Shown here: in pieces, positions 15,469 through 27,645 of the stretch
How positions within the stretch are numbered: position 1 is the first letter of the stretch
Layout of the letters: each line of letters begins with the position of its first letter
Source of the DNA: Escherichia phage 1W
DNA length: 49,662 nt
Reading direction: 5' to 3' (one strand)
Sequence record: OM475428
The notes under the pieces: generated by a model
Seen by the model: the letters and a program-made list of their open reading frames with translations, nothing else
Database searches by the model: none
Told to the model about the DNA's origin: nothing
Position numbers and translations under genes: made by a program

Positions 15469-18400
15469 ATGGGTAAAGGCAGCAGTAAGGGGCATACCCC
15501 GCGCGAAGCGAAGGACAACCTGAAGTCCACGCAGTTGCTGAGTGTGATCGATGCCATCAGCGAAGGGCCGATAGAAGGTCCGGTGGATGGATTAAAAAGC
15601 GTGCTGCTGAACAGTACACCGGTGCTGGACAGTGAGGGAAATACCAACATCTCCGGCGTCACGGTGGTGTTCCGGGCAGGTGAGCAGGAGCAGACACCGC
15701 CGGAGGGATTTGAATCCTCCGGTTCCGAGACGGTGCTGGGTACGGAAGTGAAATATGACACGCCGATCACCCGCACCATTACGTCTGCAAACATCGACCG
15801 TCTGCGCTTTACCTTCGGTGTGCAGGCACTGGTGGAAACCACTTCAAAGGGGGACCGTAATCCGTCGGAAGTCCGCCTGCTGGTTCAGATACAGCGTAAC
15901 GGTGGCTGGGTGACGGAAAAAGACATAACCATTAAGGGCAAAACCACCTCGCAGTATCTGGCCTCGGTGGTGGTGGATAACCTGCCTCCGCGCCCGTTCA
16001 ATATCCGGATGCGCAGGATGACACCGGACAGCACCACAGACCAGCTGCAGAACAAAACGCTCTGGTCGTCATACACCGAAATCATCGATGTGAAACAGTG
16101 CTACCCGAACACGGCACTGGTCGGCGTGCAGGTGGACTCGGAACAGTTCGGCAGCCAGCAGGTGAGCCGTAATTATCATCTTCGCGGGCGCATTCTGCAG
16201 GTGCCGTCGAACTATAACCCGCAGACGCGGCAATACATCGGTATCTGGGACGGGACGTTTAAACCGGCATACAGCAACAACATGGCCTGGTGTCTGTGGG
16301 ATATGCTGACCCACCCGCGCTACGGCATGGGTAAACGTCTTGGTGCGGCAGATGTGGATAAATGGGCGCTGTATGTCATCGGCCAGAATTGCGACCAGTC
16401 GGTGCCGGACGGTTTTGGCGGCACGGAGCCGCGCATCACCTGTAACGCTTACCTGACCACACAGCGCAAGGCGTGGGATGTGCTCAGTGATTTCTGCTCG
16501 GCGATGCGCTGTATGCCGGTATGGAACGGGCAGACGCTGACGTTCGTGCAGGACCGGCCATCGGATAAGGTGTGGACCTATAACCGCAGTAATGTGGTGA
16601 TGCCGGAAGATGGCGCGCCGTTCCGCTACAGCTTCAGCGCCCTGAAGGACCGTCATAATGCCGTTGAGGTGAACTGGATTGACCCGGATAACGGCTGGGA
16701 GACGGCGACAGAGCTTGTGGAGGACACGCGGGCCATTGCCCGTTACGGTCGTAATGTCACGAAGATGGACGCCTTTGGCTGTACCAGCCGGGGGCAGGCA
16801 CACCGAGCCGGGCTGTGGCTGATTAAAACGGAGCTGCTGGAAACGCAGACCGTGGACTTTAGCGTGGGTGCTGAAGGGCTTCGCCATGTACCGGGCGATG
16901 TCATTGAAATCTGCGATGATGACTATGCCGGTATCAGCACCGGCGGGCGCGTGCTGGCGGTGAACAGCCAGACCCGGACGCTGACGCTCGACCGTGAAAT
17001 CACGCTGCCATCCTCCGGCACCACGCTGATAAGCCTGGTTGACGGGCAGGGTAATCCGGTGAGCGTGGAGGTTCAGTCCGTCACCGACGGCGTGAAGGTG
17101 AAAGTGAGCCGGGTTCCTGACGGCGTTGCCGAATACAGCGTGTGGGGGCTGAAGCTGCCGACGCTGCGCCAGCGCCTGTTCCGCTGTGTGAGTATCCGTG
17201 AGAATGACGACGGTACGTATGCCATCACCGCCGTGCAGCATGTACCGGCAAAAGAGGCCATCGTGGATAACGGGGCGCACTTTGACGGCGACCAGAGCGG
17301 AACGGTAAACGGTGTCACGCCGCCAGCAGTACAGCACCTGACCGCAGAAGTCACCGCAGACAGCGGGGAATACCAGGTGCTGGCGCGCTGGGATACGCCG
17401 AAGGTGGTGAAGGGGGTGAGCTTTATGCTTCGCCTGACCGTGGCAGCGGATGACGGCAGTGAGCGGCTGGTCAGCACGGCCCGGACGACGGAAACCACAT
17501 ACCGCTTCACGCAACTGGCGCTGGGAAACTACAGGCTGACAGTCCGGGCGGCAAATGCCTGGGGGCAGCAGGGCGATCCGGCATCGGTATCGTTCCGTAT
17601 TGCCGCACCGGCAGCGCCGTCGCGGATTGAGCTGACGCCGGGCTATTTTCAGATCACCGCCACGCCGCATCTTGCCGTTTATGATCCGACGGTACAGTTT
17701 GAGTTCTGGTTCTCGGAAAAGCGGGTTGCGGATATCAGGCAGGTTGAAACTACAGCCCGCTATCTTGGCACGGCGCTGTACTGGATAGCTGCCAGTATCA
17801 ATATCAAGCCGGGCCATGATTATTATTTTTATATCCGCAGTGTGAATACTGTTGGCAAATCGGCATTCGTGGAGGCTGTCGGTCGGGCGAGCGATGATGC
17901 GGAAGGTTACCTGGATTTTTTCAAAGGCCAGATAACCGAATCCCATCTCGGCAAGGAGCTGCTGGAAAAAGTCGAGCTGACGGAGGATAACGCCAGCAAA
18001 CTGGAGGAGTTCTCGAAAGAGTGGAAAGACGCCAACGATAAATGGAATGCCATGTGGGGTGTCAAAATTGAGCAGACCGAAGACGGCAAACATTATGTCG
18101 CGGGGCTTGGCCTCAGCATGGAGGATACAGAGGAAGGCAAACTGAGCCAGTTCCTGGTTGCCGCTAACCGTATCGCGTTTATTGACCCGGCAAACGGGAA
18201 TGAAACGCCGATGTTTGTGGCGCAGGGCAACCAGATATTCATGAACGAAGTGTTCCTGAAGTATCTGACGGCTCCCACCATTACCAGCGGCGGCAATCCG
18301 CCGGTATTTTCCCTGACACCGGACGGGCGGCTGACGGCGAAAAATGCCGATATCAGCGGTAACGTGAATGCGAACTCCGGGACGCTCAATAATGTCACGA

Positions 18401-18867
18401 TTAACCAGAACTGTCGGATTATGGGAAAACTGTCTGCCAACCAGATTGAAGGTGATATTGTCAAAACGGTGGGAAAAGCCTTTCCGAGAAATGGCAGTTA
18501 TGCCAGCGGTACAATAACGGTCACTGTGTACGATGACCAGGCTTTTGACCGTCAGATAGTAATCCCACCCGTTCTGTTTCGCGGTGGTAAGCATGAAAAC
18601 TTCAACAGCAACAACCAACAGTCATACTGGTATTCAACCTGTAAGCTGCAGGTACTGAAGAACGGACAGGAAATCTTTCAGCAACCCGCGACGGATGTCA
18701 GCAGGGTATTTTCATCAGTCATTGATATGCCTGCCGGACACGGCCATGTCACCCTGACTTTCAATGTTTCTTCATATGGTGCTAATAACTGGACGCCAAC
18801 GACCAGTATCAGCGACCTTCTTGTTGTTGTGATGAAGAAATCTACAGCCGGTATCAGTATCAGTTGA
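15469..18867 (+). CDS. J: Central tail fibre / host specificity protein J
   Basis: 1132 aa, same length as lambda gpJ, located after I. Confidence 0.9.
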
Positions 18868-18925
18868 ATTTTATAACCCAGATACGGGTGCCAGAAATGG
18901 CGCCTTTTTTATTTGTGGAGTGAAT

Positions 18926-20854
18926 ATGGCAGTACAGATTTCAGGCGTGCTGAAAGACGGTGCAGGAAAACCGATACAGAACTGCACCATTCAGCTCAAA
19001 GCAAAACGTAACAGCACCACGGTTGTGGTGAACACGGTGGCCTCAGAAAATCCGGATGAAGCCGGACGTTACAGCATGGATGTCGAGTATGGCCAGTACA
19101 GCGTTATCCTGCTGGTTGAAGGTTTTCCGCCTTCACATGCCGGGACCATCACCGTGTATGAGGATTCTAAGCCGGGGACGCTGAATGATTTTCTGGGGGC
19201 CATGACGGAAGAGGATGTCATGCCGGAGGCATTGCGTCGTTTTGAGGTAATGGTGGAGGATGTGGCACGCAACGCTGAAGCCGCCTCTCAGAGCGCAGCG
19301 GCAGCAAAGAAATCAGAAACAGCAGCGGCATCGTCCAGGAACGCGGCGAAAACATCAGAGACGAATGCAGGTAACAGCGCGAAAGCGGCAGCTTCTTCAA
19401 AAACAGCCGCACAAAACGCAGCAACAGCGGCAGAACGTTCAGAGACAAATGCCCGTGCGTCAGAAGAAGCCTCCGCAGACAGTGAAGAGGCTTCCCGCCG
19501 TAATGCAGAGTCAGCCGCTGAAAATGCCGGAGTCGCCACCACAAAAGCGCGGGAGGCTGCAGCAGACGCAACAAAGGCCGGGCAGAAAAAGGATGAGGCT
19601 CTGTCGGCAGCGACACGAGCTGAAAAGGCGGCAGACCGCGCAGAAGCCGCAGCGGAAGTGACTGCAGAGCCCTATGCGAATATAGTGCCGCCGCTGCCTG
19701 ATGTGTGGATACCGTTTAACGATTCACTGGATATGATTGCGGGTTTTTCTCCGGGCTATAAAAAAATAGCTATTGGTGACGATGTGGTTCAGGTCGCCAG
19801 TGATAAACAGGTTAATTTCAGTCGCGCATCAACGGCAACATATATCAACAAATCTGGCGAACTGAAAACGGCGGAAATTAATGAGCCGCGATTTGAGTGT
19901 GATGGCCTGCTTATTGAGGGACAAAGAACGAACTACATGCTCAATTCGGAAAGTCCAGCCAGCTGGGGGAAGTCATCAAACATGGATGTGCCCGAAACTG
20001 GGACGGATAGTTTTGGTTTTACTTATGGAAAGTTTGTCTGCAACGATTCTCTGGTTGGGCAAACTTCGGCTATTAATATGGCATCAATTGCTGCAACAAA
20101 GTCAGTTGATGTCTCAGGCGATAACAAGTACGTGACAACCTCATGCCGTTTTAAAACAGAACGACAGGTAAGGTTACGTATACGGTTTGATAAGTATGAT
20201 GGTAGTGCAACAACTTTTCTTGGCGATGCGTACATTGATACGCAAACGCTTGAAATTAATATGACAGGTGGTGCTGCCGGCAGAATTACGGCACGAGTCA
20301 GGAAGGATAAGACCACGGGCTGGATTTTTGCAGAGGCAACGATTCAGGCAATTGATGGTGAGTTAAAAATAGGCTCTCAGATACAGTATTCTCCTGAGCA
20401 GGGTGGGGCAACAGTATCTGGTGACTATATTTATCTTGCCACCCCACAAGTAGAGAATGGGCCGTGTGTATCATCATTTATTATTTCAGGAGGCAGCGCA
20501 ACGACAAGAGCCAGTGATTTGGTTAGTATCCCCACCAGAAATAATCTTTATAAGTTACCATTTACTTTTTTACTTGAGATTCATAAAAACTGGGATATTG
20601 CACCAAACGCCGCACCCCGCGTGTGGGATATAGCAGCCAATACCGGGCAATCAGCAATTGCAGCAATCAACAGAGGTAGTGGTAAGTTATATATGAGTCT
20701 GTCAAACCCTTCAGGCTCGTATGTTAATAGCGCAGCGACAGATGTATTTGCAGAGAAAACCACATTTGGATGTATTGCAAAAGCTGATGGTCACTTTCAT
20801 GTGGTGACAAATGGTAAAGCGGTTAATGAAGTTTATTGTGAATATAATGGGTAA
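18926..20854 (+). pseudogene. stf: Side tail fibre gene interrupted near its 3' end by an IS66-family insertion; encodes a product lacking the last 43 residues
   Basis: N-terminus near-identical to lambda Stf (MAVxISGVLKDGxGKPxQNCTIQLKAxRNSTTVVVNTV) with Ala/Ser-rich repeats. The stop codon TAA is supplied by the first bases of the IS left end at 20851. Confidence 0.8.
20843..20850. repeat. 8-bp target site duplication TATAATGG (left copy)
   Basis: Identical 8-mer immediately flanks both IS ends (20843-20850 and 23383-23390). Confidence 0.8.
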
Positions 20855-20935
20855 GCGTAAACTGACCGCCGTATGTAGCCATCAGACGAGAATTGGTAAC
20901 TTAGACGCCCATCTGATATAGACGGACATCTAAGT

Positions 20936-21361
20936 ATGGAATTACAGGACTGGCGAAAAGAACCTCGTAAAAACTATTCGAATGAATTCAAACTTCGTAT
21001 GGTGGAACTGGCATCACAACCTGGAGCTTGTGTTGCACAGATTGCACGTGAAAATGGCGTCAATGATAATGTTATTTTCAAATGGCTCAGGCTCTGGCAG
21101 AACGAAGGGCGTGTTTCGCGGCGTCTTCCGGTAACGACCTCTTCTGACACTGGCGTTGAATTATTACCTGTAGAAATAACGCCGGATGAGCAGAAAGAAC
21201 CTGTGGCGGCCATTGCGCCGTCTTTATCCACTTCCACTCAGACCAGAGTCAGTGCCAGTTCCTGCAAGGTGGAATTCCGTCACGGTAACATGACGCTGGA
21301 AAATCCATCGCCAGAGCTGCTCACAGTGTTGATCCGTGAACTGACCGGGAGGGGAAGATGA
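20936..21361 (+). CDS. IS66 family accessory protein (orf1/TnpA-like, HTH)
   Basis: 141 aa; IS66 orf1-like N-terminus; overlaps orf2 by 4 nt. Confidence 0.8.
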   Translation: MELQDWRKEPRKNYSNEFKLRMVELASQPGACVAQIARENGVNDNVIFKWLRLWQNEGRVSRRLPVTTSSDTGVELLPVEITPDEQKEPVAAIAPSLSTSTQTRVSASSCKVEFRHGNMTLENPSPELLTVLIRELTGRGR

Positions 21362-21708
21362 TCTCACTCCCATCAGGTACCCGTATCTGGCTCGTTGCCG
21401 GCGTTACCGATATGCGTAAATCCTTCAACGGACTGGGAGAACAGGTACAACATGTGCTGAATGATAATCCCTTCTCCGGTCACCTGTTTATCTTCCGTGG
21501 CCGACGGGGTGACACCGTCAAAATTCTTTGGGCTGATGCTGATGGTCTGTGCCTGTTCACCAAACGCCTGGAGGAAGGCCAGTTTATCTGGCCTGCGGTA
21601 CGTGACGGCAAGGTATCCATTACCCGCTCGCAACTGGCAATGCTCCTCGATAAGCTGGACTGGCGTCAGCCAAAAACATCCAGCCGTAACTCACTGACAA
21701 TGTTGTAA
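21358..21708 (+). CDS. IS66 family TnpB-like protein (orf2)
   Basis: 116 aa with the typical IS66 orf2 motif (RIWLVAGVTDMRKSFNGL). Confidence 0.85.
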   Translation: MISLPSGTRIWLVAGVTDMRKSFNGLGEQVQHVLNDNPFSGHLFIFRGRRGDTVKILWADADGLCLFTKRLEEGQFIWPAVRDGKVSITRSQLAMLLDKLDWRQPKTSSRNSLTML

Positions 21709-21738
21709 AAAACTCCTGACCGCATTATAAAAACGGTC

Positions 21739-23352
21739 ATGAGTCAGAAATACCTCATTCGCATCGCAGAGCTGGAAAGGTTGCTCTCTGAGCAGGCTGA
21801 AGCCCTCCGTCAGAAAGACCAGCAACTGAGTCTGGTTGAAGAGACGGAAGCCTTCCTGCGCTCTGCACTGACACGTGCCGAAGAAAAGATCGAAGAAGAT
21901 GAACGGGAAATAGAACATCTGCGGGCTCAGATAGAAAAACTGCGCCGGATGCTGTTCGGTACCCGTTCTGAAAAACTGCGTCGTGAAGTTGAACTGGCTG
22001 AGGCTCTGCTGAAACAACGTGAACAGGACAGCGATCGTTACAGTGGGCGGGAAGACGATCCTCAGGTTCCCCGCCAGTTGCGACAGTCGCGCCATCGTCG
22101 TCCGTTACCGGCACACCTTCCCCGTGAAATACACCGCCTGGAGCCAGAAGAAAGCTGTTGCCCGGAGTGTGGCGGTGAGCTGGATTATCTGGGGGAAGTC
22201 AGCGCTGAACAGCTGGAACTGGTGAGCAGTGCCCTGAAAGTGATCCGCACAGAACGGGTAAAAAAAGCCTGTACAAAATGTGACTGTATTGTTGAAGCAC
22301 CGGCGCCGTCCCGCCCGATAGAGCGTGGTATCGCGGGCCCCGGATTACTTGCCCGCGTGTTAACGGGAAAATACTGCGAACATCTGCCACTGTATCGTCA
22401 GAGTGAAATCTTTGCCCGCCAGGGTGTCGAACTGAGCCGGGCCTTACTCTCCAACTGGGTTGACGCGTGCTGCCAGTTAATGACACCGGTGAATGATGCC
22501 CTGTACCGTTATGTAATGAATACCCGCAAGGTTCACACTGATGACACACCGGTAAAGGTACTGGCACCGGGTCAGAAAAAGGCGAAAACAGGGCGTATCT
22601 GGACGTATGTCCGGGATGATCGCAATGTGGGTTCGTCATCTCCTCCAGCGGTCTGGTTCGCGTACTCGCCGAACCGGCAGGGGAAACACCCGGAGCAACA
22701 CCTCCGCCCCTTCCGGGGTATCCTGCAGGCGGATGCGTTCACAGGTTACGACAGGTTGTTCAGTGCAGAACGTGAAGGTGGTGCACTGACAGAAGTTGCG
22801 TGCTGGGCCCATGCCCGGCGAAAAATCCACGATGTATACATCAGCAGCAAAAGTGCGACGGCAGAAGAAGCCCTGAAGCGAATCAGTGAACTGTACGCCA
22901 TCGAGGATGAAATACGGGGATTACCGGAGTCAGAGCGTCTTGCCGTCAGGCAGCAGCGAAGCAAAGTGTTACTGACGTCGCTGCATGAATGGATGGTGGA
23001 GAAGAATGGTACGCTGTCGAAAAAATCCAGACTGGGCGAAGCGTTCAGCTATGTACTGAATCAGTGGGATGCCCTCTGTTATTACAGTGATGACGGTCTG
23101 GCGGAGGCGGATAATAATGCTGCGGAAAGAGCGCTTCGTGCAGTCTGTCTCGGAAAGAAAAACTTTATGTTCTTTGGCAGCGATCACGGCGGCGAGCGTG
23201 GAGCACTGTTGTACGGGCTGATCGGCACCTGCCGTCTGAACGGTATCGATCCGGAAGCGTATCTGCGCCATATCCTGAGCGTACTGCCGGAATGGCCTTC
23301 CAACCGAGTTGACGAACTCCTGCCATGGAACGTAGTACTCACCAATAAATAA
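21739..23352 (+). CDS. IS66 family transposase (orf3, DDE with zinc ribbon)
   Basis: 537 aa; N-terminal coiled coil, CPECGGEL zinc-ribbon motif, conserved IS66 transposase core. Confidence 0.85.
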   Translation: MSQKYLIRIAELERLLSEQAEALRQKDQQLSLVEETEAFLRSALTRAEEKIEEDEREIEHLRAQIEKLRRMLFGTRSEKLRREVELAEALLKQREQDSDRYSGREDDPQVPRQLRQSRHRRPLPAHLPREIHRLEPEESCCPECGGELDYLGEVSAEQLELVSSALKVIRTERVKKACTKCDCIVEAPAPSRPIERGIAGPGLLARVLTGKYCEHLPLYRQSEIFARQGVELSRALLSNWVDACCQLMTPVNDALYRYVMNTRKVHTDDTPVKVLAPGQKKAKTGRIWTYVRDDRNVGSSSPPAVWFAYSPNRQGKHPEQHLRPFRGILQADAFTGYDRLFSAEREGGALTEVACWAHARRKIHDVYISSKSATAEEALKRISELYAIEDEIRGLPESERLAVRQQRSKVLLTSLHEWMVEKNGTLSKKSRLGEAFSYVLNQWDALCYYSDDGLAEADNNAAERALRAVCLGKKNFMFFGSDHGGERGALLYGLIGTCRLNGIDPEAYLRHILSVLPEWPSNRVDELLPWNVVLTNK

Positions 23353-23382
23353 GCGTCAATACGGTGCTCCGTTGACGCTTAC

Positions 23383-23390
23383 TATAATGG
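23383..23390. repeat. 8-bp target site duplication TATAATGG (right copy)
   Basis: Direct repeat of 20843-20850 abutting the IS right end. Confidence 0.8.
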
Positions 23391-23523
23391 CGTGACCGCT
23401 GATAAAAATATCCGATTTGGAGGGCAGACGAATACTGGAGAACGACATCTGTTTGGCCATATTCGCAATTTCCGCATATGGCATAAAGAATTAAATGACA
23501 GGCAATTAAAAGAGGTCGTATGA
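23391..23523 (+). pseudogene. stf: Displaced 3' end of stf (last 43 codons plus stop), in frame with the upstream part once the IS and one TSD copy are removed
   Basis: Conceptual excision restores ...EYNG-VTADKNIRFGGQTNTGERHLFGHIRNFRIWHKELNDRQLKEVV*; the tail resembles the last strand of a LamG/ConA-like lectin domain. Confidence 0.7.
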
Positions 23524-23798
23524 AAGATTTAACTTTGAAGTTTCATGACAAACTGCAGTTTAAGGCCTTCCTGTCATCTCTTGGCTGGGCGGAAGATGAA
23601 GACCTCCAGAATAAACTGTTAGTTGATGAAATTGGTTTCACCTACACAGAAACAGGGGTAACAGAAGAGGGAGAACCTGTCTGTATCCGGAATGATGGTT
23701 ATTTTGTCAACATTCGCATTCTTGATGACTTGTTTGATGTTTCTGTATTCTCTGATTATGTCGTGGAGCTGGAAACACCGCTTCGGGAATGGAGCTGA
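23520..23798 (+). CDS. Hypothetical acidic protein, start overlapping the reconstructed stf stop (GTATGA)
   Basis: 92-aa ORF with ATG; the stop/start overlap suggests original translational coupling to stf; no recognisable family. Confidence 0.5.
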   Translation: MKDLTLKFHDKLQFKAFLSSLGWAEDEDLQNKLLVDEIGFTYTETGVTEEGEPVCIRNDGYFVNIRILDDLFDVSVFSDYVVELETPLREWS

Positions 23799-23810
23799 AA
23801 GGAGGAAATA

Positions 23811-24104
23811 ATGGATATAAGCCCCTTACTTCATGCACTTTGTGCTGTGGCTGCGCAGATACTGGTTGGTCTTTTTACCGGAAACTGGGCTTACGGAGCG
23901 ATAGCCGGTTGTACGTTCTTCATTGCGCGTGAACATACCCAGGCAGAATATCGCTGGATTGAAATGTTCGGGCATGGCAAGCGAATGAATATGCCGTGGT
24001 GGGGCGGTTTTGATCCGCGTGCTTGGGATGTGGCAAGCCTGATGGATTTTGCTGTGCCGGTGGTGGCGTGTCTGCTGGTCTGGCTGTTGGTTAATCGTGG
24101 GTGA
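23811..24104 (+). CDS. Hypothetical small membrane protein (two predicted TM segments)
   Basis: 97 aa with hydrophobic N- and C-terminal stretches, Trp-rich middle; RBS-like GGAGG upstream. Confidence 0.5.
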   Translation: MDISPLLHALCAVAAQILVGLFTGNWAYGAIAGCTFFIAREHTQAEYRWIEMFGHGKRMNMPWWGGFDPRAWDVASLMDFAVPVVACLLVWLLVNRG

Positions 24105-24195
24105 AAAAAGGTGAGCTGTATATGCAACGGAGGAAGAAACCCCGTTGCTGGAAGCCAGGAAAAAGTATCGGGTGTTGCTGTCCTCGGATGTTGTG

Positions 24196-25053
24196 CTAAT
24201 TGGGTGATAACAGATCCTGTGTATGGGAGTTTCCCTTTTTGCGTGCGTTGATGCTGGTAACGGCAAACGTCATGATGAACAAAACCGCGAATAAGACGAC
24301 AATCGTCGGAGCTGGTGCGCTGTCGATAAAAAAGGACAACCAGACACCAGTCATTGACACTATTACCGATATGCCAGTCGCCAGTAGGAGCGCAATATGA
24401 AAGCGTTGTGTCAGGAGTACCGCAATGGCGCCAGGCGCAATGAGCAGAGAAATGGAGAGAATGATACCTACCGCTTTCAGCGTCGCCACAATGGTCAGAG
24501 AGACCATGCACAGCAGCCCATAATGCAGCCATCTCGTATGCAAACCGCTTACCTGCGCCTGTTGATAATCAAAGCTGAACAGCAAAAAATCCCGCCATTT
24601 TACGCTAATAACAAGTGTAACCAGCCCGGCAATAATCATCGTCTGGATTATATCGCCGATGGTTATCCCGAGCATGTCGCCGAAAAGAATATGGTCAAGA
24701 TGTACGTCTGGTTTGACTGCAATATACAAGATCAGACCTGCGGCAAACATGCCAGAAAAAACAATCCCCATCACTGTATCTTGCTTGATTCGGCTGTTGT
24801 CTTTCAGGTATCCCGTCGCCACCGCGCAGAATACTCCGGCGACGAATGCCCCTGTAGCCAAAGGTAACCCCAGAATCCAGGCAAGCACGATGCCAGGAAA
24901 AACCGCATGACTCATCGCGTCACCCATCAGTGCCCAACCTTTCAGGACCAGAAAGACCGACAGCAGCGCACAGGGTATGGAAACTACCAGTGAAATCAGC
25001 AGTGCGTGACTCATAAAGGTGAACTGCAGTGGCTCCAGTAATAATGCCATCAT
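24196..25053 (-). CDS. sitD: Mn/Fe ABC transporter permease SitD
   Basis: 285 aa polytopic membrane protein, ABC-3 permease family; last gene of a four-gene operon with overlapping stop/start junctions. Confidence 0.85.
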   Translation of the reverse strand: MMALLLEPLQFTFMSHALLISLVVSIPCALLSVFLVLKGWALMGDAMSHAVFPGIVLAWILGLPLATGAFVAGVFCAVATGYLKDNSRIKQDTVMGIVFSGMFAAGLILYIAVKPDVHLDHILFGDMLGITIGDIIQTMIIAGLVTLVISVKWRDFLLFSFDYQQAQVSGLHTRWLHYGLLCMVSLTIVATLKAVGIILSISLLIAPGAIAVLLTQRFHIALLLATGISVIVSMTGVWLSFFIDSAPAPTIVVLFAVLFIMTFAVTSINARKKGNSHTQDLLSPN

Positions 25054-25907
25054 GAGCGATCCTCCAGCGCCTTATGCGCACGCCGACGATTTGCCAAAAG
25101 CCCATGGGTGGGCGCAAAGACAAATGCTAAAAGAAACAGCAGTGTCTGCGCCACCACGATGATTCCACCTGTCGCGCCGTCCAGAAAGTAACTGACCCAC
25201 GCGCCGAGGAAACTGGTTACACTGCCAATAGTTACAGCAATCATGAGCAGGCGGGGAAAACGATCGGTTAACAACCATGCTGTTGCACCGGGAGTCACCA
25301 CCAGACAGATCACCAGAAAGGCACCAACCGTTTGCAGCGCCGCAACGGTCGAAACCGACAGCAGGGTGAAGAAGAGGAGTTTTAATCTGCCCGGATGCAA
25401 TCCAATAGCACGGGCGTGATTCTCGTCGAAAAAGGTCACCATAAGATCTTTCCATTTGAAAAAAAGCACGATGATCGAGAGAATGCCAATGATAGTGAGT
25501 TGCAGGATATCCGCCGGATCGATTGCCAGAATATTGCCCAGGACGATGGTCTGAATGTTCACAGATGTCGGGTTCAATGACACCATAAACAGCCCCAGGC
25601 CAAAAAAGGACGAGAAGATCAGACCGATGATGGCATCTTCTTTTAAGCGGGTGCGTTGGTTAAGAAACAGCATGCTGCCCGCAGCCAGTCCGCCGGAAAA
25701 GAAGGCTCCCAGAGAAAACGGAAGCCCCAGCATATATGCCCCCGCAACACCCGGGACAATAGAGTGCGACAACGCATCGCCAATCAGCGACCAGCCTTTT
25801 AGCATCAGATAGCATGACAGGAAAGCGCAGAGACCGCCGACCATCGCCGAGACCCACATCGCATTGAGCATATATTCATAGCTGAAGGGTTCCAGTAGCA
25901 CGTTCAT
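25050..25907 (-). CDS. sitC: Mn/Fe ABC transporter permease SitC
   Basis: 285 aa paralogous permease; overlaps neighbours by 4 nt. Confidence 0.85.
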
Positions 25908-26731
25908 CTTTCTTCCCTCTGCACCGCTGACGGTCGATGAGCCACAAAAGGGCGTTCATCGTCAGTAATAATGCTTTCTTCCGAGCCGTTAAGTGTGACA
26001 TGGCGCAGTACGCCGCTAAAAGCCAGCTCTAGGTTCTCGGCTGTAAAAGTGGTGTCTGTCGGCCCGCTTGCCAGGACGGTGCCTTTGACCATGACCGTAT
26101 AATCGCAAAATGTCGTGACGGATCCGAGATTGTGTGTTGAGACAAGCATCGTTTTGCCTTCCGCGCGTAACTCCCTCAACAGGCTGATGATTTTGGCTTC
26201 GGTTTTCACATCAACGCCAGTAAAAGGTTCATCCAGCAGGATCACATCACCCTGCTGTGCAATCGCTCTCGCCAGAAAGACGCGTTTCTTTTGTCCACCG
26301 GAAAGCTCGCCGATTTGTCGATGGCGAAAATTCACCATATCGACACGTTCCAGCGCATCGGTGACAATTTGACGATCCCTCTTTTTGGCGATACGCAACA
26401 TACCCATATGCCCATAGCGGCCCATCATCACCACATCTTCCACCAGTACAGGAAATGACCAGTCAACCTCTTCTGACTGAGGGACGTAGGCAACCAGGTT
26501 TTTCTGTAACGCCTGTCGCGTGGGAATACCCAGAACAGATATCTTTCCGCTGGTCAGACGCACAAATCCCATAATCGCTTTAAACAACGTCGATTTTCCG
26601 GAACCGTTTACCCCAACCAGAGCGGCAATAGATCCACTTGGTACTGTGAAGGATGCATCGCGCAGTGCTGTGTGCCCGTTATGCCAGGTGACAGCAACAT
26701 CATTAACGACAATGCCTGCAGATTGCATCAT
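25904..26731 (-). CDS. sitB: Mn/Fe ABC transporter ATP-binding protein SitB
   Basis: Walker [13 protein letters not shown] signature LSGGQKKR, Walker B ILLDEP. Confidence 0.9.
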
Positions 26732-27645
26732 TATTTCTCCCTTTTCCCGGCTTTAATTCCCTGTACCAGCGTACTGGTAGTAACCTTAAGAAGGTCGATA
26801 TACGTCGGTACCGGGCCGTTTTCTGTGCTCAGGGAATCGACATAGAGCACACCGCCGTAGTGTGCGCCGGTTTCACGCGCAACCTGACGCGCTGGTTTAT
26901 CGGAAATCGTACTCTCGCTAAAGACTGCCGGGATATGATTTTTCTTAACTATATCAACAACCTTACGTACCTGCTGCGGTGTTCCTTGTTGATCGGCATT
27001 AATCGGCCACAGATAAAGCTCTTTTAGCCCCAAATCGCGTGCGAGATAAGAAAAAGCCCCTTCACTGGTGACCATCCATCGCTGATTCTCAGGGAGTTCC
27101 GTAATCTGCTTACGCAGGGGGGCAAGGGTTTGGGTAATCTTGGCTTTATAAGTATCGGCATTGCGTTGGTAGGTTTGTGCATTTGCCGGATCGTATTTTA
27201 TCAACGCATCACGAATATTATCGACGTAAATCAGAGCATTATCTGGCGACATCCATGCATGGGGGTTAGGTTTGCCCTCATAGGGTCCTTCGGTGATCCC
27301 TACAGGCGTCACACCCGAAGAGACAATTACTTCTGGAACCCCATTGAGATGCTGGTAAAAGCGTTGGAACCACAATTCCAGATTCATACCATTGGCGAGA
27401 ATCAGTTGTGCCCCCTGCGCACGTTTAATATCGCCAGGGGTAGGCTGATACTCATGAATTTCTGCACCAGGCTTGGTTATGGATGAGACTTCTGCAGCAT
27501 CTCCCGCCACGTTTTTGGCCATATCCGCGATGATGGTAAATGTTGTAATGACCTTAAATTTTTCAGTTGCACTTGCCTGAAATGCGATCGAGCAGGTGAG
27601 TGCGAGGCCCCCCAAGAGCATGGTTACTTTTTTTATTGAGCGCAT
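26731..27645 (-). CDS. sitA: Periplasmic Mn/Fe-binding protein SitA (cluster A-I substrate-binding protein) with signal peptide
   Basis: 304 aa; N-terminal signal peptide; TroA/ZnuA-like fold features; first gene of the operon. Confidence 0.9.

What the first reader, a model, noticed from the sequence alone, without database searches (positions are those of the whole stretch)
23520..24104. Two small unassigned genes directly downstream of stf (one originally translationally coupled to it)
The 92-aa acidic protein starts at an ATG overlapping the reconstructed stf stop, the arrangement usually seen for fibre chaperones, yet it does not resemble Tfa. It is followed by a 97-aa protein with two predicted TM helices. 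Small membrane proteins encoded next to tail fibre genes in lambdoid phages are often superinfection-exclusion factors; that assignment is speculative here.
Basis: inference. Interest (0 to 1): 0.35.

Follow-up and report, generated by a model that had tools for sequence, protein, structure and literature searches.

The report
Two accessory genes behind tail fibre
Both small genes after the IS-interrupted side-tail-fibre gene of this lambda-like phage are real and conserved: the first always travels with this fibre type and is probably its assembly partner, while the second is an uncharacterised membrane protein that many temperate phages carry right behind their receptor-binding genes.

Summary
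Removing a 2,532-bp IS66-family element (8-bp target duplication) restores a 686/687-aa stf that is 98% identical to the phage 21 stf. Its TGA overlaps the ATG of ORF-A (92 aa, pI 4.2). ORF-B (97 aa) starts 12 bp after ORF-A behind an AGGAGG site. Both are under purifying selection. Neither matches Pfam, NCBIfam, PADLOC or any solved structure. They fall only in PHROGs of unknown function (1361 and 18574; 1443).

ORF-A follows this fibre type, with start and stop overlapping, in about 190 phage genomes. The fibre has a LamG/RcGTA-head-spike-like C-terminal domain. These genomes include virulent T5-like, Drexlerviridae, Dhillonvirus and rV5-like phages. I read ORF-A as a dedicated fibre partner, most likely a trans-acting chaperone unrelated to Tfa.

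ORF-B differs in composition (52.7% vs 41.9% GC) and is absent from those virulent phages. It belongs to a family of about 1,900 clusters of three-helix membrane proteins. Members sit directly 3′ of unrelated tailspikes and fibres in lambda-, P22- and P2-like, DGR-carrying and podovirus prophages across Proteobacteria. Others are chromosomal genes in Aeromonas and Sphingomonas. Its function is unknown. Superinfection exclusion is neither shown nor excluded, and receptor-specific masking looks unlikely.

The parts
18926..20850 (+). stf, 5' part. This is a side tail fibre with an N-terminal phage_tail_N anchor and a LamG/RcGTA-head-spike-like distal domain.
   Evidence: PF08400 at E 5e-69, NF048003 GTA_spike_fiber at E 8e-15 and phrog_1419. 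The distal 439 aa match PDB 6tb9 Rcc01080 at E 7e-10. The protein is 98.4% identical to phage 21 stf.
20851..23382 (+). IS66-family insertion sequence (tnpA, tnpB, tnpC) interrupting stf. The 8-bp target duplication TATAATGG lies at 20843-20850 and 23383-23390.
   Evidence: ORFs of 141, 116 and 537 aa. The junctions align to the intact phage 21 stf.
23391..23523 (+). stf, 3' part: the last 44 codons plus the stop, forming the end of the LamG-like jelly roll.
   Evidence: phrog_1419 positions 752-793 at E 1.4e-19, and a weak Laminin_G_3 match. It continues the 5' part in frame after the IS is removed.
23520..23798 (+). ORF-A: a 92-aa acidic cytoplasmic alpha/beta protein, and the constant downstream partner of this fibre type.
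   Evidence: phrog_1361 at E 3e-42 and phrog_18574 at E 1.7e-6. AF2 pLDDT 90. BFVD hits are only to uncharacterised phage proteins. Found in 190 phage records, next to a fibre gene in every locus inspected. The ATGA overlap is seen.
23811..24104 (+). ORF-B: a 97-aa integral membrane protein (helices 4-23, 26-53, 74-96) with the invariant motif AREHTQAEYRWI..FG.GKR.NMPWWGGFD.
   Evidence: phrog_1443 at E 2e-58. AF2 pLDDT 91. Alignments A1 and A4. 426 representative clusters and 1,941 clusters at 90% identity.
24124..24195 (+). Remnant of the 3' end of a tail-fibre-assembly (tfa) gene. It marks where the fibre-tip/ORF-A/ORF-B cassette replaced an older stf-tip/tfa cassette.
   Evidence: It translates to ..ATEEETPLLEARKKYRVLLSSDVVL. 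The homologous stretch in L002 and L003 is annotated 'tail fiber assembly protein, missing N-terminus'.

Best explanation
The two ORFs are separate accessory genes attached to the 3' end of the side-tail-fibre module.

ORF-A is a small, very acidic cytoplasmic protein made in step with Stf through stop/start overlap. I infer that it is the dedicated partner of the LamG/GTA-head-spike-like distal domain of this fibre. This fibre lacks the self-cleaving S74 chaperone domain and has no Tfa. The most likely role of ORF-A is a trans-acting folding or trimerisation chaperone. A less likely role is a small protein that stays on the fibre.

ORF-B is a later addition with a different base composition. 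It is an inner-membrane protein whose conserved, positively charged loop probably faces the cytoplasm. The same fibre plus ORF-A occurs without ORF-B in virulent phages, so ORF-B is not needed to build the fibre. It belongs to a cellular family that temperate phages repeatedly carry directly behind their receptor-binding genes. I infer that it acts from the inner membrane on a conserved host component. Possible outcomes are interference with incoming phage genomes or an effect on the envelope or on lysis.

Shown here: gene reality, coupling, co-occurrence patterns, predicted fold and the absence of known homologues. Inferred: both functions.
For: ORF-A:
- The stop/start overlap with the fibre gene is seen in all seven loci whose junction was checked: window, phage 21, L002, L003, L089/L090, T5_ev219, tuinn and naswa.
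- tblastn finds ORF-A in 190 phage records and the fibre distal domain in 227. The same phage groups dominate both lists: lambdoid, T5-like, Drexlerviridae, Dhillonvirus, JenP1-type and rV5-like.
- The same fibre-tip + ORF-A pair is attached to unrelated N-terminal anchors. N-terminal identity is 20-30% while C-terminal identity is 54-62%.
- ORF-A identity tracks the fibre region -430..-150 (Spearman 0.74 over 21 pairs).
- ORF-A has the GC content of the stf 3' end (41.9 vs 41.4%).
- stf has no Peptidase_S74 domain, whereas the second small fibre proteins that often follow ORF-A do.
- Small ORFs between a related fibre and ORF-B in Comamonas hit the same phrog_18574, and their profile aligns weakly with ORF-A (E 0.0017).

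ORF-B:
- GC is 52.7%.
- None of the T5-like, Drexlerviridae, Dhillonvirus or rV5-like records appears among the listed ORF-B hits.
- In every phage locus inspected it lies directly 3' of the receptor-binding gene, or one small gene further on. These are P22-like JEP4, phiHAP-1, P2-like Leclercia and Enterobacter, Salmonella between two tailspikes, Citrobacter, a GDSL-esterase spike, a Desulfovibrio podophage, a Chelativorans LamG fibre, Mtd-like/Avd DGR loci and Comamonas J.
- Non-phage chromosomal copies exist.
- The loop carries a mean of 5.3 K+R against 0.6 on the opposite side.
Against: No experiment or complex model supports a physical ORF-A/Stf interaction. Structure searches give no link to any known chaperone. 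The co-variation could reflect simple linkage, because the L003 pair shows recombination between fibre and ORF-A.

ORF-A is often followed by a second fibre protein. It could therefore be an adaptor rather than a chaperone.

For ORF-B, no promoter-like site precedes it and it overlaps or abuts the upstream gene in several phages. That pattern fits late co-expression with the fibre better than prophage expression. In four phage or prophage loci it directly precedes lysis or lysis-like genes. The topology is not settled, because the GenBank note for phage 21 gives 2 TMDs with N-in and C-in.
Confidence: 0.5

Rival explanations
1. ORF-B is a superinfection-exclusion protein. In this reading it is made in the lysogen, or late in infection, sits in the inner membrane and blocks genome entry of incoming phages, in the manner of T4 Imm, P22 SieA or HK97 gp15.
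For: It is a small inner-membrane protein. It sits in the spots where temperate phages keep conversion and exclusion genes: after stf in lambdoids next to the sitABCD moron, between tailspike and int in P22-like phages next to an O-acetylase, and between fibre genes and sheath in phiHAP-1. Intact copies are mostly in temperate phages and prophages. Only fragments remain in a Kuttervirus and in the phage 6947 group, although the Aeromonas jumbo phages carry annotated ~87-aa copies.
Against: It matches no PHROG, Pfam or PADLOC family annotated as exclusion or defence. It has no promoter-like site of its own and is coupled to the upstream late gene. It stays about 60% identical from E. coli to Comamonas and Aeromonas behind unrelated receptor-binding proteins, whereas known exclusion proteins are narrow and fast-evolving. 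Chromosomal copies exist outside prophages. One intact copy lies between tailspike genes on a 160-kb Salmonella contig that looks like a virulent Kuttervirus.
Confidence: 0.25
2. ORF-B is a lysis-related membrane protein, either holin- or antiholin-like or a modulator of lysis timing.
For: It is about 97 aa with three hydrophobic helices, a size typical of class I holins. In the Comamonas prophage and a metagenomic phage it is immediately followed by two small membrane proteins, an endolysin-type gene and spanin-like genes. In Acidovorax it is followed by an endolysin.
Against: In this window, and in the other lambdoid, P22-like, P2-like and phiHAP-1 contexts, it is far from the lysis cassette. 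It has a 34-residue conserved polar loop and almost no C-terminal tail (mean 3 residues), unlike class I holins. Chromosomal copies have no lysis neighbours.
Confidence: 0.1
3. ORF-A is a structural adaptor rather than a chaperone. In this reading it stays in the virion, for example joining the main fibre to the second small fibre protein that usually follows it, or capping the tip.
For: In most loci ORF-A lies between the large fibre gene and a second fibre-like gene. These are the 234-346-aa Peptidase_S74 proteins in L002, L089-L092, L094 and L096, a 573-aa protein in T5_ev219 and a 166-aa protein in tuinn. Branched lateral fibres are documented in T5-like phages (PMC4728585, PMC10713586).
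Against: ORF-A is kept in phage 21 and its relatives, which have no second fibre gene. No virion proteomics is at hand, and no structural homologue was found among solved virion proteins.
Confidence: 0.2
4. ORF-B has no phage-specific role. In this reading it is a host-physiology gene (lysogenic conversion) or a passenger that hitch-hikes with receptor-binding cassettes because it lies at a recombination hot spot.
For: Its DNA is 95-96% identical behind different upstream genes in hundreds of E. coli genomes. Conserved chromosomal copies exist in Aeromonas and Sphingomonas. It decays in virulent phages. A tfa stub downstream shows that a cassette was replaced.
Against: Strong purifying selection (dN/dS 0.14-0.22) and an invariant motif across classes of bacteria show a selected protein function. 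Placement directly 3' of the receptor-binding module recurs in all three tail morphotypes and four proteobacterial classes, which is hard to explain by hitch-hiking alone.
Confidence: 0.15

Closest known systems
Tail fibre assembly chaperones encoded directly downstream of fibre genes (lambda/Mu/P2 Tfa, Pfam Caudo_TAP; T4 gp38 and gp57A)
   Same: ORF-A sits directly 3' of the fibre gene and is translationally coupled to it. It travels with the fibre's distal domain when that domain is exchanged between phages, and it is kept in virulent phages. A tfa stub downstream shows that the cassette replaced a classical stf-tip/tfa pair.
   Different: ORF-A has no sequence or fold similarity to Tfa. It is half the size (92 aa) and very acidic. 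It serves a LamG/RcGTA-head-spike-like tip rather than a Tfa-dependent tip. Chaperone activity is not demonstrated.
Peptidase_S74 intramolecular chaperone domains of fibres and tailspikes (T5 pb1, endosialidases)
   Same: They solve the same problem, namely trimer folding of the distal fibre. S74-bearing small fibres are the usual neighbours of ORF-A and often of ORF-B.
   Different: S74 is part of the fibre polypeptide and cleaves itself off. The stf here has no S74 domain, and ORF-A is a separate gene.
Receptor-blocking lipoproteins encoded next to receptor-binding genes (T5 Llp; Cor of phi80, N15 and HK022)
   Different: Llp and Cor are outer-membrane lipoproteins specific for FhuA. ORF-B has no lipobox or cleavable lipoprotein signal and is an integral membrane protein. 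It is conserved irrespective of the neighbouring receptor-binding protein, and no HMM similarity was found.
Inner-membrane exclusion proteins (T4 Imm, P22 SieA, HK97 gp15)
   Same: They are small phage-encoded inner-membrane proteins, and this is a plausible general mode of action for ORF-B.
   Different: No detectable homology was found. ORF-B has cellular homologues, a far wider distribution and no evident own promoter. No exclusion phenotype is known.
Small membrane inhibitors and conversion genes flanking tailspike genes (epsilon15 gp21, D3 Iap, gtrABC, oac)
   Same: They occupy the same genomic niche next to polysaccharide-specific receptor-binding proteins. In phage vB_EcoP-611R6 ORF-B lies beside an O-acetylase.
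   Different: Those genes are specific for a receptor chemistry and come with matching partner enzymes. ORF-B stands alone and is conserved across hosts, including Sphingomonas. This comparison rests on my own knowledge of those systems and was not tested here.

Membership tests
Tfa / Caudo_TAP tail fibre assembly proteins (for ORF-A) | Sequence match to the Caudo_TAP family (Pfam PF02413; accession cited from my own knowledge) or to Tfa PHROGs | tested here: not met
   No Pfam hit apart from a noise match (LUD_dom, E 0.29). PHROG hits are only to unknown-function families 1361 and 18574.
Tfa / Caudo_TAP tail fibre assembly proteins (for ORF-A) | Gene directly downstream of, and co-inherited with, the fibre's distal domain | tested here: met
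   The stop/start overlap is present in all seven loci checked. The pair recurs in about 190 phage genomes of several families.
Tfa / Caudo_TAP tail fibre assembly proteins (for ORF-A) | Required for fibre trimerisation or assembly | not testable with these tools
   This needs a deletion or co-expression experiment. No slot was left for a complex structure prediction.
Cor / Llp receptor-masking lipoproteins (for ORF-B) | Lipoprotein signal peptide with a lipobox cysteine | tested here: not met
   The N-terminus MDISPLLHALCAV has no basic n-region. The residues before C11 (H-A-L) do not fit a lipobox, and C11 is not conserved in the family.
Cor / Llp receptor-masking lipoproteins (for ORF-B) | Sequence similarity to Cor or Llp families | tested here: not met
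   PHROG scans of ORF-B and of 42 homologues hit only phrog_1443 and 34165 (phrog_9191 only at E 0.066 for ORF-B itself), all of unknown function.
Inner-membrane superinfection exclusion proteins (Imm, SieA, gp15) (for ORF-B) | Integral inner-membrane protein | tested here: met
   AF2 predicts three hydrophobic helices with pLDDT 91. The hydropathy and charge profile agrees.
Inner-membrane superinfection exclusion proteins (Imm, SieA, gp15) (for ORF-B) | Homology to a described exclusion or defence family | tested here: not met
   No relevant hits in Pfam, NCBIfam, PHROGs, PADLOC or PDB.
Inner-membrane superinfection exclusion proteins (Imm, SieA, gp15) (for ORF-B) | Blocks infection or DNA entry when expressed | not testable with these tools
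   This needs plating, adsorption and injection assays.
Moron (independently expressed accessory gene in a late operon) (for ORF-B) | Composition distinct from neighbouring phage genes | tested here: met
   ORF-B has 52.7% GC, against 41.9% for ORF-A and 41.4% for the stf 3' end.
Moron (independently expressed accessory gene in a late operon) (for ORF-B) | Own promoter and terminator | tested here: inconclusive
   The consensus scan finds no sigma-70-like site or terminator-like site next to ORF-B. The start lies 12 bp after ORF-A here and overlaps the tailspike gene in JEP4. Consensus scans cannot exclude weak or internal promoters.
Holins (for ORF-B) | Encoded in a lysis cassette next to an endolysin | tested here: not met
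   In this window and in phage 21 it lies between stf/ORF-A and sitD. Adjacency to lysis or lysis-like genes occurs in only four of the phage loci examined.

The most novel reading that the evidence does not exclude
ORF-B represents an undescribed, widespread class of small inner-membrane proteins that temperate phages of all three tail morphotypes keep welded to the 3' end of their receptor-binding gene cassettes. In this reading its invariant cytoplasm-facing motif (RE..QAE.RW...W...P) acts on a conserved host inner-membrane component, giving a generic protective or entry-blocking function that is independent of receptor type. ORF-A would in parallel define a new family of trans-acting chaperones for LamG/GTA-spike-type lateral fibres.
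Probability: 0.2. Interest if true: 0.7.

Novelty: new variant of a known kind. Interest (0 to 1): 0.45.

Why it matters
Lateral tail fibres of this LamG/GTA-spike type occur in several coliphage groups whose lateral fibres are thought to recognise O-antigen (T5-like, Drexlerviridae, Dhillonvirus; PMC8594841). Engineering or swapping such fibres requires knowing which helper genes must move with them. ORF-A looks like that helper, and it has no name, Pfam family or structure.

ORF-B is one of the more widely distributed unannotated small membrane proteins in prophages. It occurs in about a third of complete E. coli genomes and in about 1,900 protein clusters. Its repeated placement directly behind unrelated receptor-binding genes gives a clear, testable lead to a possible new phage-host interface at the inner membrane.

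If ORF-B proves to be only a passenger, the result still helps to define the boundaries of exchangeable receptor-binding cassettes.

Tried and rejected
- Pfam, NCBIfam, PADLOC and PDB sequence searches returned nothing meaningful for either ORF. Scanning 25 and 42 ORF-B homologues one by one against Pfam gave only scattered noise. The recurrent weak PhoR N-terminal hits (best E 0.0035, 4-5 members) look like transmembrane composition bias.
- Foldseek against PDB gave no hit for ORF-B. For ORF-A it gave only weak PII/ribosomal-protein-like matches (E > 0.03, TM-score < 0.45), which I do not interpret. BFVD returned only uncharacterised phage proteins for ORF-A.
- The Tai tail-assembly-inhibition systems (PMC11364771) were considered and dropped. 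They map elsewhere in phi80 (orf63/orf64) and their paper never uses the word transmembrane.
- LtfC of T5-like phages was considered as an ORF-A equivalent and rejected. It is the collar protein encoded upstream of ltfA (locus).
- An association of ORF-B specifically with Peptidase_S74 proteins was tested and is only partial. Only 3 of 35 upstream neighbours in the genome scan carry S74.
- The IMG/VR scan returned only near-identical E. coli loci and added no diversity. A scan with the divergent alignment failed for lack of a conserved stretch.
- No Rfam family or tRNA lies in the region.
- Literature searches by accession, PHROG number and topic found no paper on either protein.
- Direct profile comparison of ORF-A with the Comamonas and Pantoea small ORFs was only weakly positive (E 0.0017). 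The link rests mainly on the shared phrog_18574 hits.
Full report
**What the window is.** The window is a complete lambda-like coliphage genome. It runs from terminase through J (15469-18867) to stf, followed by sitDCBA on the minus strand, int and the early region. The stretch 23356-24200 is 100% identical to Escherichia phages Lambda_4C10, 4A7 and 3W and about 99% identical to phage 21, ev207, ev017 and Perceval. It also occurs in 1,913 of 5,426 complete E. coli genomes.

The 'reconstructed stf' is correct.
- An IS66-family element with ORFs of 141, 116 and 537 aa occupies 20851-23382.
- It is flanked by the 8-bp duplication TATAATGG at 20843-20850 and 23383-23390.
- Removing it and one duplicate gives a 687-aa ORF from the GTG at 18920, corresponding to the 686-aa phage 21 protein from the ATG at 18926. 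The two are 98.4% identical.
- The TGA of stf overlaps the ATG of ORF-A (gtcgtATGA) behind an AAGAGG site. ORF-B starts 12 bp after ORF-A behind AGGAGG.

ORF-A is strongly acidic (pI 4.17, net charge about -12). Both genes are under purifying selection. dN/dS is 0.34 for ORF-A. It is 0.14-0.22 for ORF-B, and synonymous sites are saturated in more distant comparisons.

No promoter-like or terminator-like site lies between the stf 3' end and the end of ORF-B. A terminator-like hairpin precedes stf at 18886-18905. The three genes therefore look like one late transcription unit.

**Known families.** Neither ORF matches Pfam, NCBIfam, PADLOC or any PDB sequence. PHROGs place ORF-A in phrog_1361 (E 3e-42), with a full-length weaker match to phrog_18574 (E 1.7e-6). 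ORF-B falls in phrog_1443 (E 2e-58). All three families are of unknown function.

The stf itself has the phage_tail_N anchor and an NCBIfam 'GTA head spike fiber' domain. Its distal 439 residues match the solved RcGTA head spike fibre Rcc01080 (6tb9, E 7e-10). The last 43 residues give a weak Laminin_G_3 match. It has no Peptidase_S74 domain.

**ORF-A.** AlphaFold gives a confident small alpha/beta fold (pLDDT 90). It has no significant neighbour among solved structures. In BFVD it has only uncharacterised 80-100-aa phage proteins as neighbours (E about 1e-5, about 28% identity).

The word-indexed protein search found only 47 clusters, all from E. coli or Shigella. tblastn against phage genomes gives a much wider picture.
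- ORF-A relatives occur in 190 phage records and the fibre distal domain in 227.
- The two lists are dominated by the same groups: lambdoid temperate phages and virulent T5-like (~108 kb), Drexlerviridae (~50 kb), Dhillonvirus (~45 kb), JenP1/KurtStettler-type (~60 kb) and rV5-like (~137 kb) phages.
- In every locus I opened, ORF-A directly follows the fibre gene with overlapping stop and start. These loci are phage 21, two E. coli prophage loci, an unrelated siphophage-type prophage, T5_ev219, tuinn and naswa.
- The N-terminal anchors of these fibres are unrelated (20-30% identity), while the distal 430 residues are 45-62% identical.
- ORF-A identity tracks the fibre region -430..-150 (Spearman 0.74 over 21 non-independent pairs).
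- ORF-A also shares the low GC of the stf 3' end.
- In Comamonas and Pantoea prophages, a small ORF lies between a related LamG-type fibre and an ORF-B homologue. The two Comamonas ORFs scanned hit phrog_18574 at E about 2e-11, and a direct profile comparison of the group with ORF-A is weakly positive (E 0.0017).

Virulent phages with compact genomes keep ORF-A, which argues that it is needed for the fibre itself. The fibre lacks an intramolecular chaperone, while the second small fibre proteins that often follow ORF-A carry one (Peptidase_S74). The best reading is therefore a trans-acting assembly chaperone of a new family. A virion-bound adaptor is the main alternative. Published work on these fibres assigns them O-antigen recognition but does not mention this gene (PMC8594841, PMC11990801, PMC10713586).

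**ORF-B: structure and family.** AlphaFold predicts three helices at 4-23, 26-53 and 74-96 (pLDDT 91), with no fold match in PDB.

The family is large. It comprises 577 clusters by single-sequence search, 426 representatives at 50% identity and 1,941 clusters with a profile. All members are about 90-110 aa, all are named 'hypothetical', and none carries a Pfam domain.

The transmembrane segments vary, but the stretch AREHTQAEYRWI..FG.GKR.NMPWWGGFD is invariant among close relatives from E. coli to Comamonas and Aeromonas. Across the wider family E41, W72 and P83 are invariant, and H8, R40, Q44, A45 and E46 are nearly so.

Over 227 homologues the loop carries on average 5.3 Lys+Arg. The TM1-TM2 turn and the C-terminal tail together carry 0.6. 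By the positive-inside rule the conserved loop should face the cytoplasm (N-in, C-out). The GenBank note for phage 21 instead reports 2 TMDs, so this point needs an experiment.

**ORF-B: where it sits.** ORF-B has a different composition from ORF-A (52.7% vs 41.9% GC) and occurs independently of it. In every phage or prophage locus examined it lies directly 3' of the receptor-binding gene, or one small gene further on:
- after a small Peptidase_S74 fibre in a Qin-type prophage;
- overlapping the tailspike gene of the P22-like phage JEP4;
- after tailspike and O-acetylase in phage 611R6;
- after fibre plus tfa in phiHAP-1;
- abutting S74 fibres in P2-like prophages of Leclercia and Enterobacter;
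- between two tailspikes on a 160-kb Salmonella contig;
- after pectate-lyase and GDSL-esterase tailspikes;
- after a pectate-lyase/S74 tailspike and before the nozzle gene in a Desulfovibrio podophage;
- after a LamG fibre in Chelativorans;
- between an Mtd-like protein and the DGR Avd gene in Comamonas nitrativorans, with the Pigmentiphaga locus showing the same gene sizes and spacing;
- between two fibre genes in Pantoea;
- after J plus a 72-aa ORF in Comamonas.

In four phage or prophage loci it also directly precedes lysis or lysis-like genes.

It is absent from the virulent phages that carry the same fibre plus ORF-A. In a Kuttervirus and the phage 6947 group it survives only as fragments. 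It is also an ordinary chromosomal gene in Aeromonas rivipollensis, between a pirin gene and a RIO1 kinase gene. Four further Aeromonas loci carry a similar-sized upstream ORF, but I did not confirm that it is the same locus. Further chromosomal copies sit behind ligA in Sphingomonas, and behind pnp, a DAHP-synthase gene or herA in other alphaproteobacterial and Sphingomonadales genomes.

**Interpretation of ORF-B.** The comparative data show that ORF-B is not required to build this fibre. They also show that it is a member of a cellular membrane-protein family that temperate phages have repeatedly placed behind receptor-binding genes.

Its high conservation behind unrelated receptor-binding proteins, the lack of a lipobox and the probable cytoplasmic loop argue against Cor/Llp-type receptor masking. 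A generic inner-membrane exclusion function like that of T4 Imm, P22 SieA or HK97 gp15 remains possible. Three points weigh against it: no homology was found, the gene appears to be expressed late and coupled to the upstream gene, and cellular homologues exist.

A lysis-related role and a host-physiology or passenger role are the other options. I rank them as follows:
- accessory inner-membrane protein acting on a conserved host target: most likely overall;
- superinfection exclusion specifically: about 0.25;
- host-physiology or passenger: about 0.15;
- lysis-related: about 0.1.

**History of the locus.** A 3' stub of a tfa gene lies between ORF-B and sitD (..PLLEARKKYRVLLSSDVV..). Homologous loci annotate it as a truncated tail fibre assembly gene. 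The fibre-tip/ORF-A/ORF-B cassette therefore replaced a classical stf-tip/tfa cassette by recombination. In this particular phage, and in 4C10, 4A7, 3W and two E. coli chromosomes, stf has since been knocked out by the IS element. These phages presumably lack side fibres, as laboratory lambda does.

**Verdict.** The chaperone-like idea for ORF-A is well supported by comparative genomics but unproven. The exclusion idea for ORF-B is unproven and, in its receptor-masking form, unlikely. Both proteins belong to sizeable uncharacterised families. ORF-B's systematic linkage to receptor-binding genes is the most interesting lead.

Noticed in passing
window 20851-23382 (duplication at 20843-20850 and 23383-23390): An IS66-family element (tnpA, tnpB, tnpC) interrupts stf 44 codons before its end. 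The same insertion is present in phages Lambda_4C10, 4A7 and 3W and in E. coli strains DA33135 and TUM11356. These phages should therefore lack side tail fibres.
   Followed up: yes
window 24196-27645 (minus strand): A complete sitABCD iron/manganese ABC transporter operon is carried inside the phage genome. It converges on ORF-B and is a large virulence-associated moron shared with phage 21 and many lambdoid prophages.
   Followed up: partly
window 24124-24195: A 3' stub of a tail-fibre-assembly (tfa) gene lies between ORF-B and sitD. It is evidence that the present fibre-tip cassette replaced an older stf/tfa cassette.
   Followed up: partly
L121 8305-8688, and L123 by matching gene sizes and spacing: In the Comamonas nitrativorans locus the ORF-B homologue lies between an Mtd-like variable protein (phrog_2889) and the Avd gene of a diversity-generating retroelement. 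That places it inside a DGR target-gene cassette. The Pigmentiphaga locus (L123) shows the same layout but its genes were not scanned.
   Followed up: no
L109 7484-7999; L113 and L120 7432-7998: In Pantoea and Comamonas the ORF-A-like domain is fused to an extra C-terminal domain of about 80-90 aa. In the one copy scanned (L113) this domain hits phrog_6034 and phrog_14311, both of unknown function. The fusion might hint at the partner or activity of ORF-A.
   Followed up: no
L005 8001-8309; L097, L099, L103, L104: In Aeromonas rivipollensis the ORF-B homologue is a chromosomal gene between a pirin gene and a RIO1 kinase gene. Four other Aeromonas species have a homologue behind an ORF of similar size to pirin (in three of them), but synteny was not confirmed. 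Aeromonas jumbo phages (PS1, AVP1, ACP1) carry a shorter copy outside any tail module.
   Followed up: partly
L095 (MAG labelled Collinsella sp.) and 'Campylobacter'/'Listeria' phage records: Near-identical E. coli phage sequences appear under unrelated organism labels. This is most likely contamination or mislabelling in the public records.
   Followed up: no
L002 4298-5002; L089/L090 6341-7390; L094; L096: Short (234-346 aa) fibre-like proteins, consisting of a coiled coil plus a Peptidase_S74 chaperone domain, commonly sit between ORF-A and ORF-B or after ORF-A. They are missing from the window. Their role as a possible second, branched fibre is unknown.
   Followed up: partly
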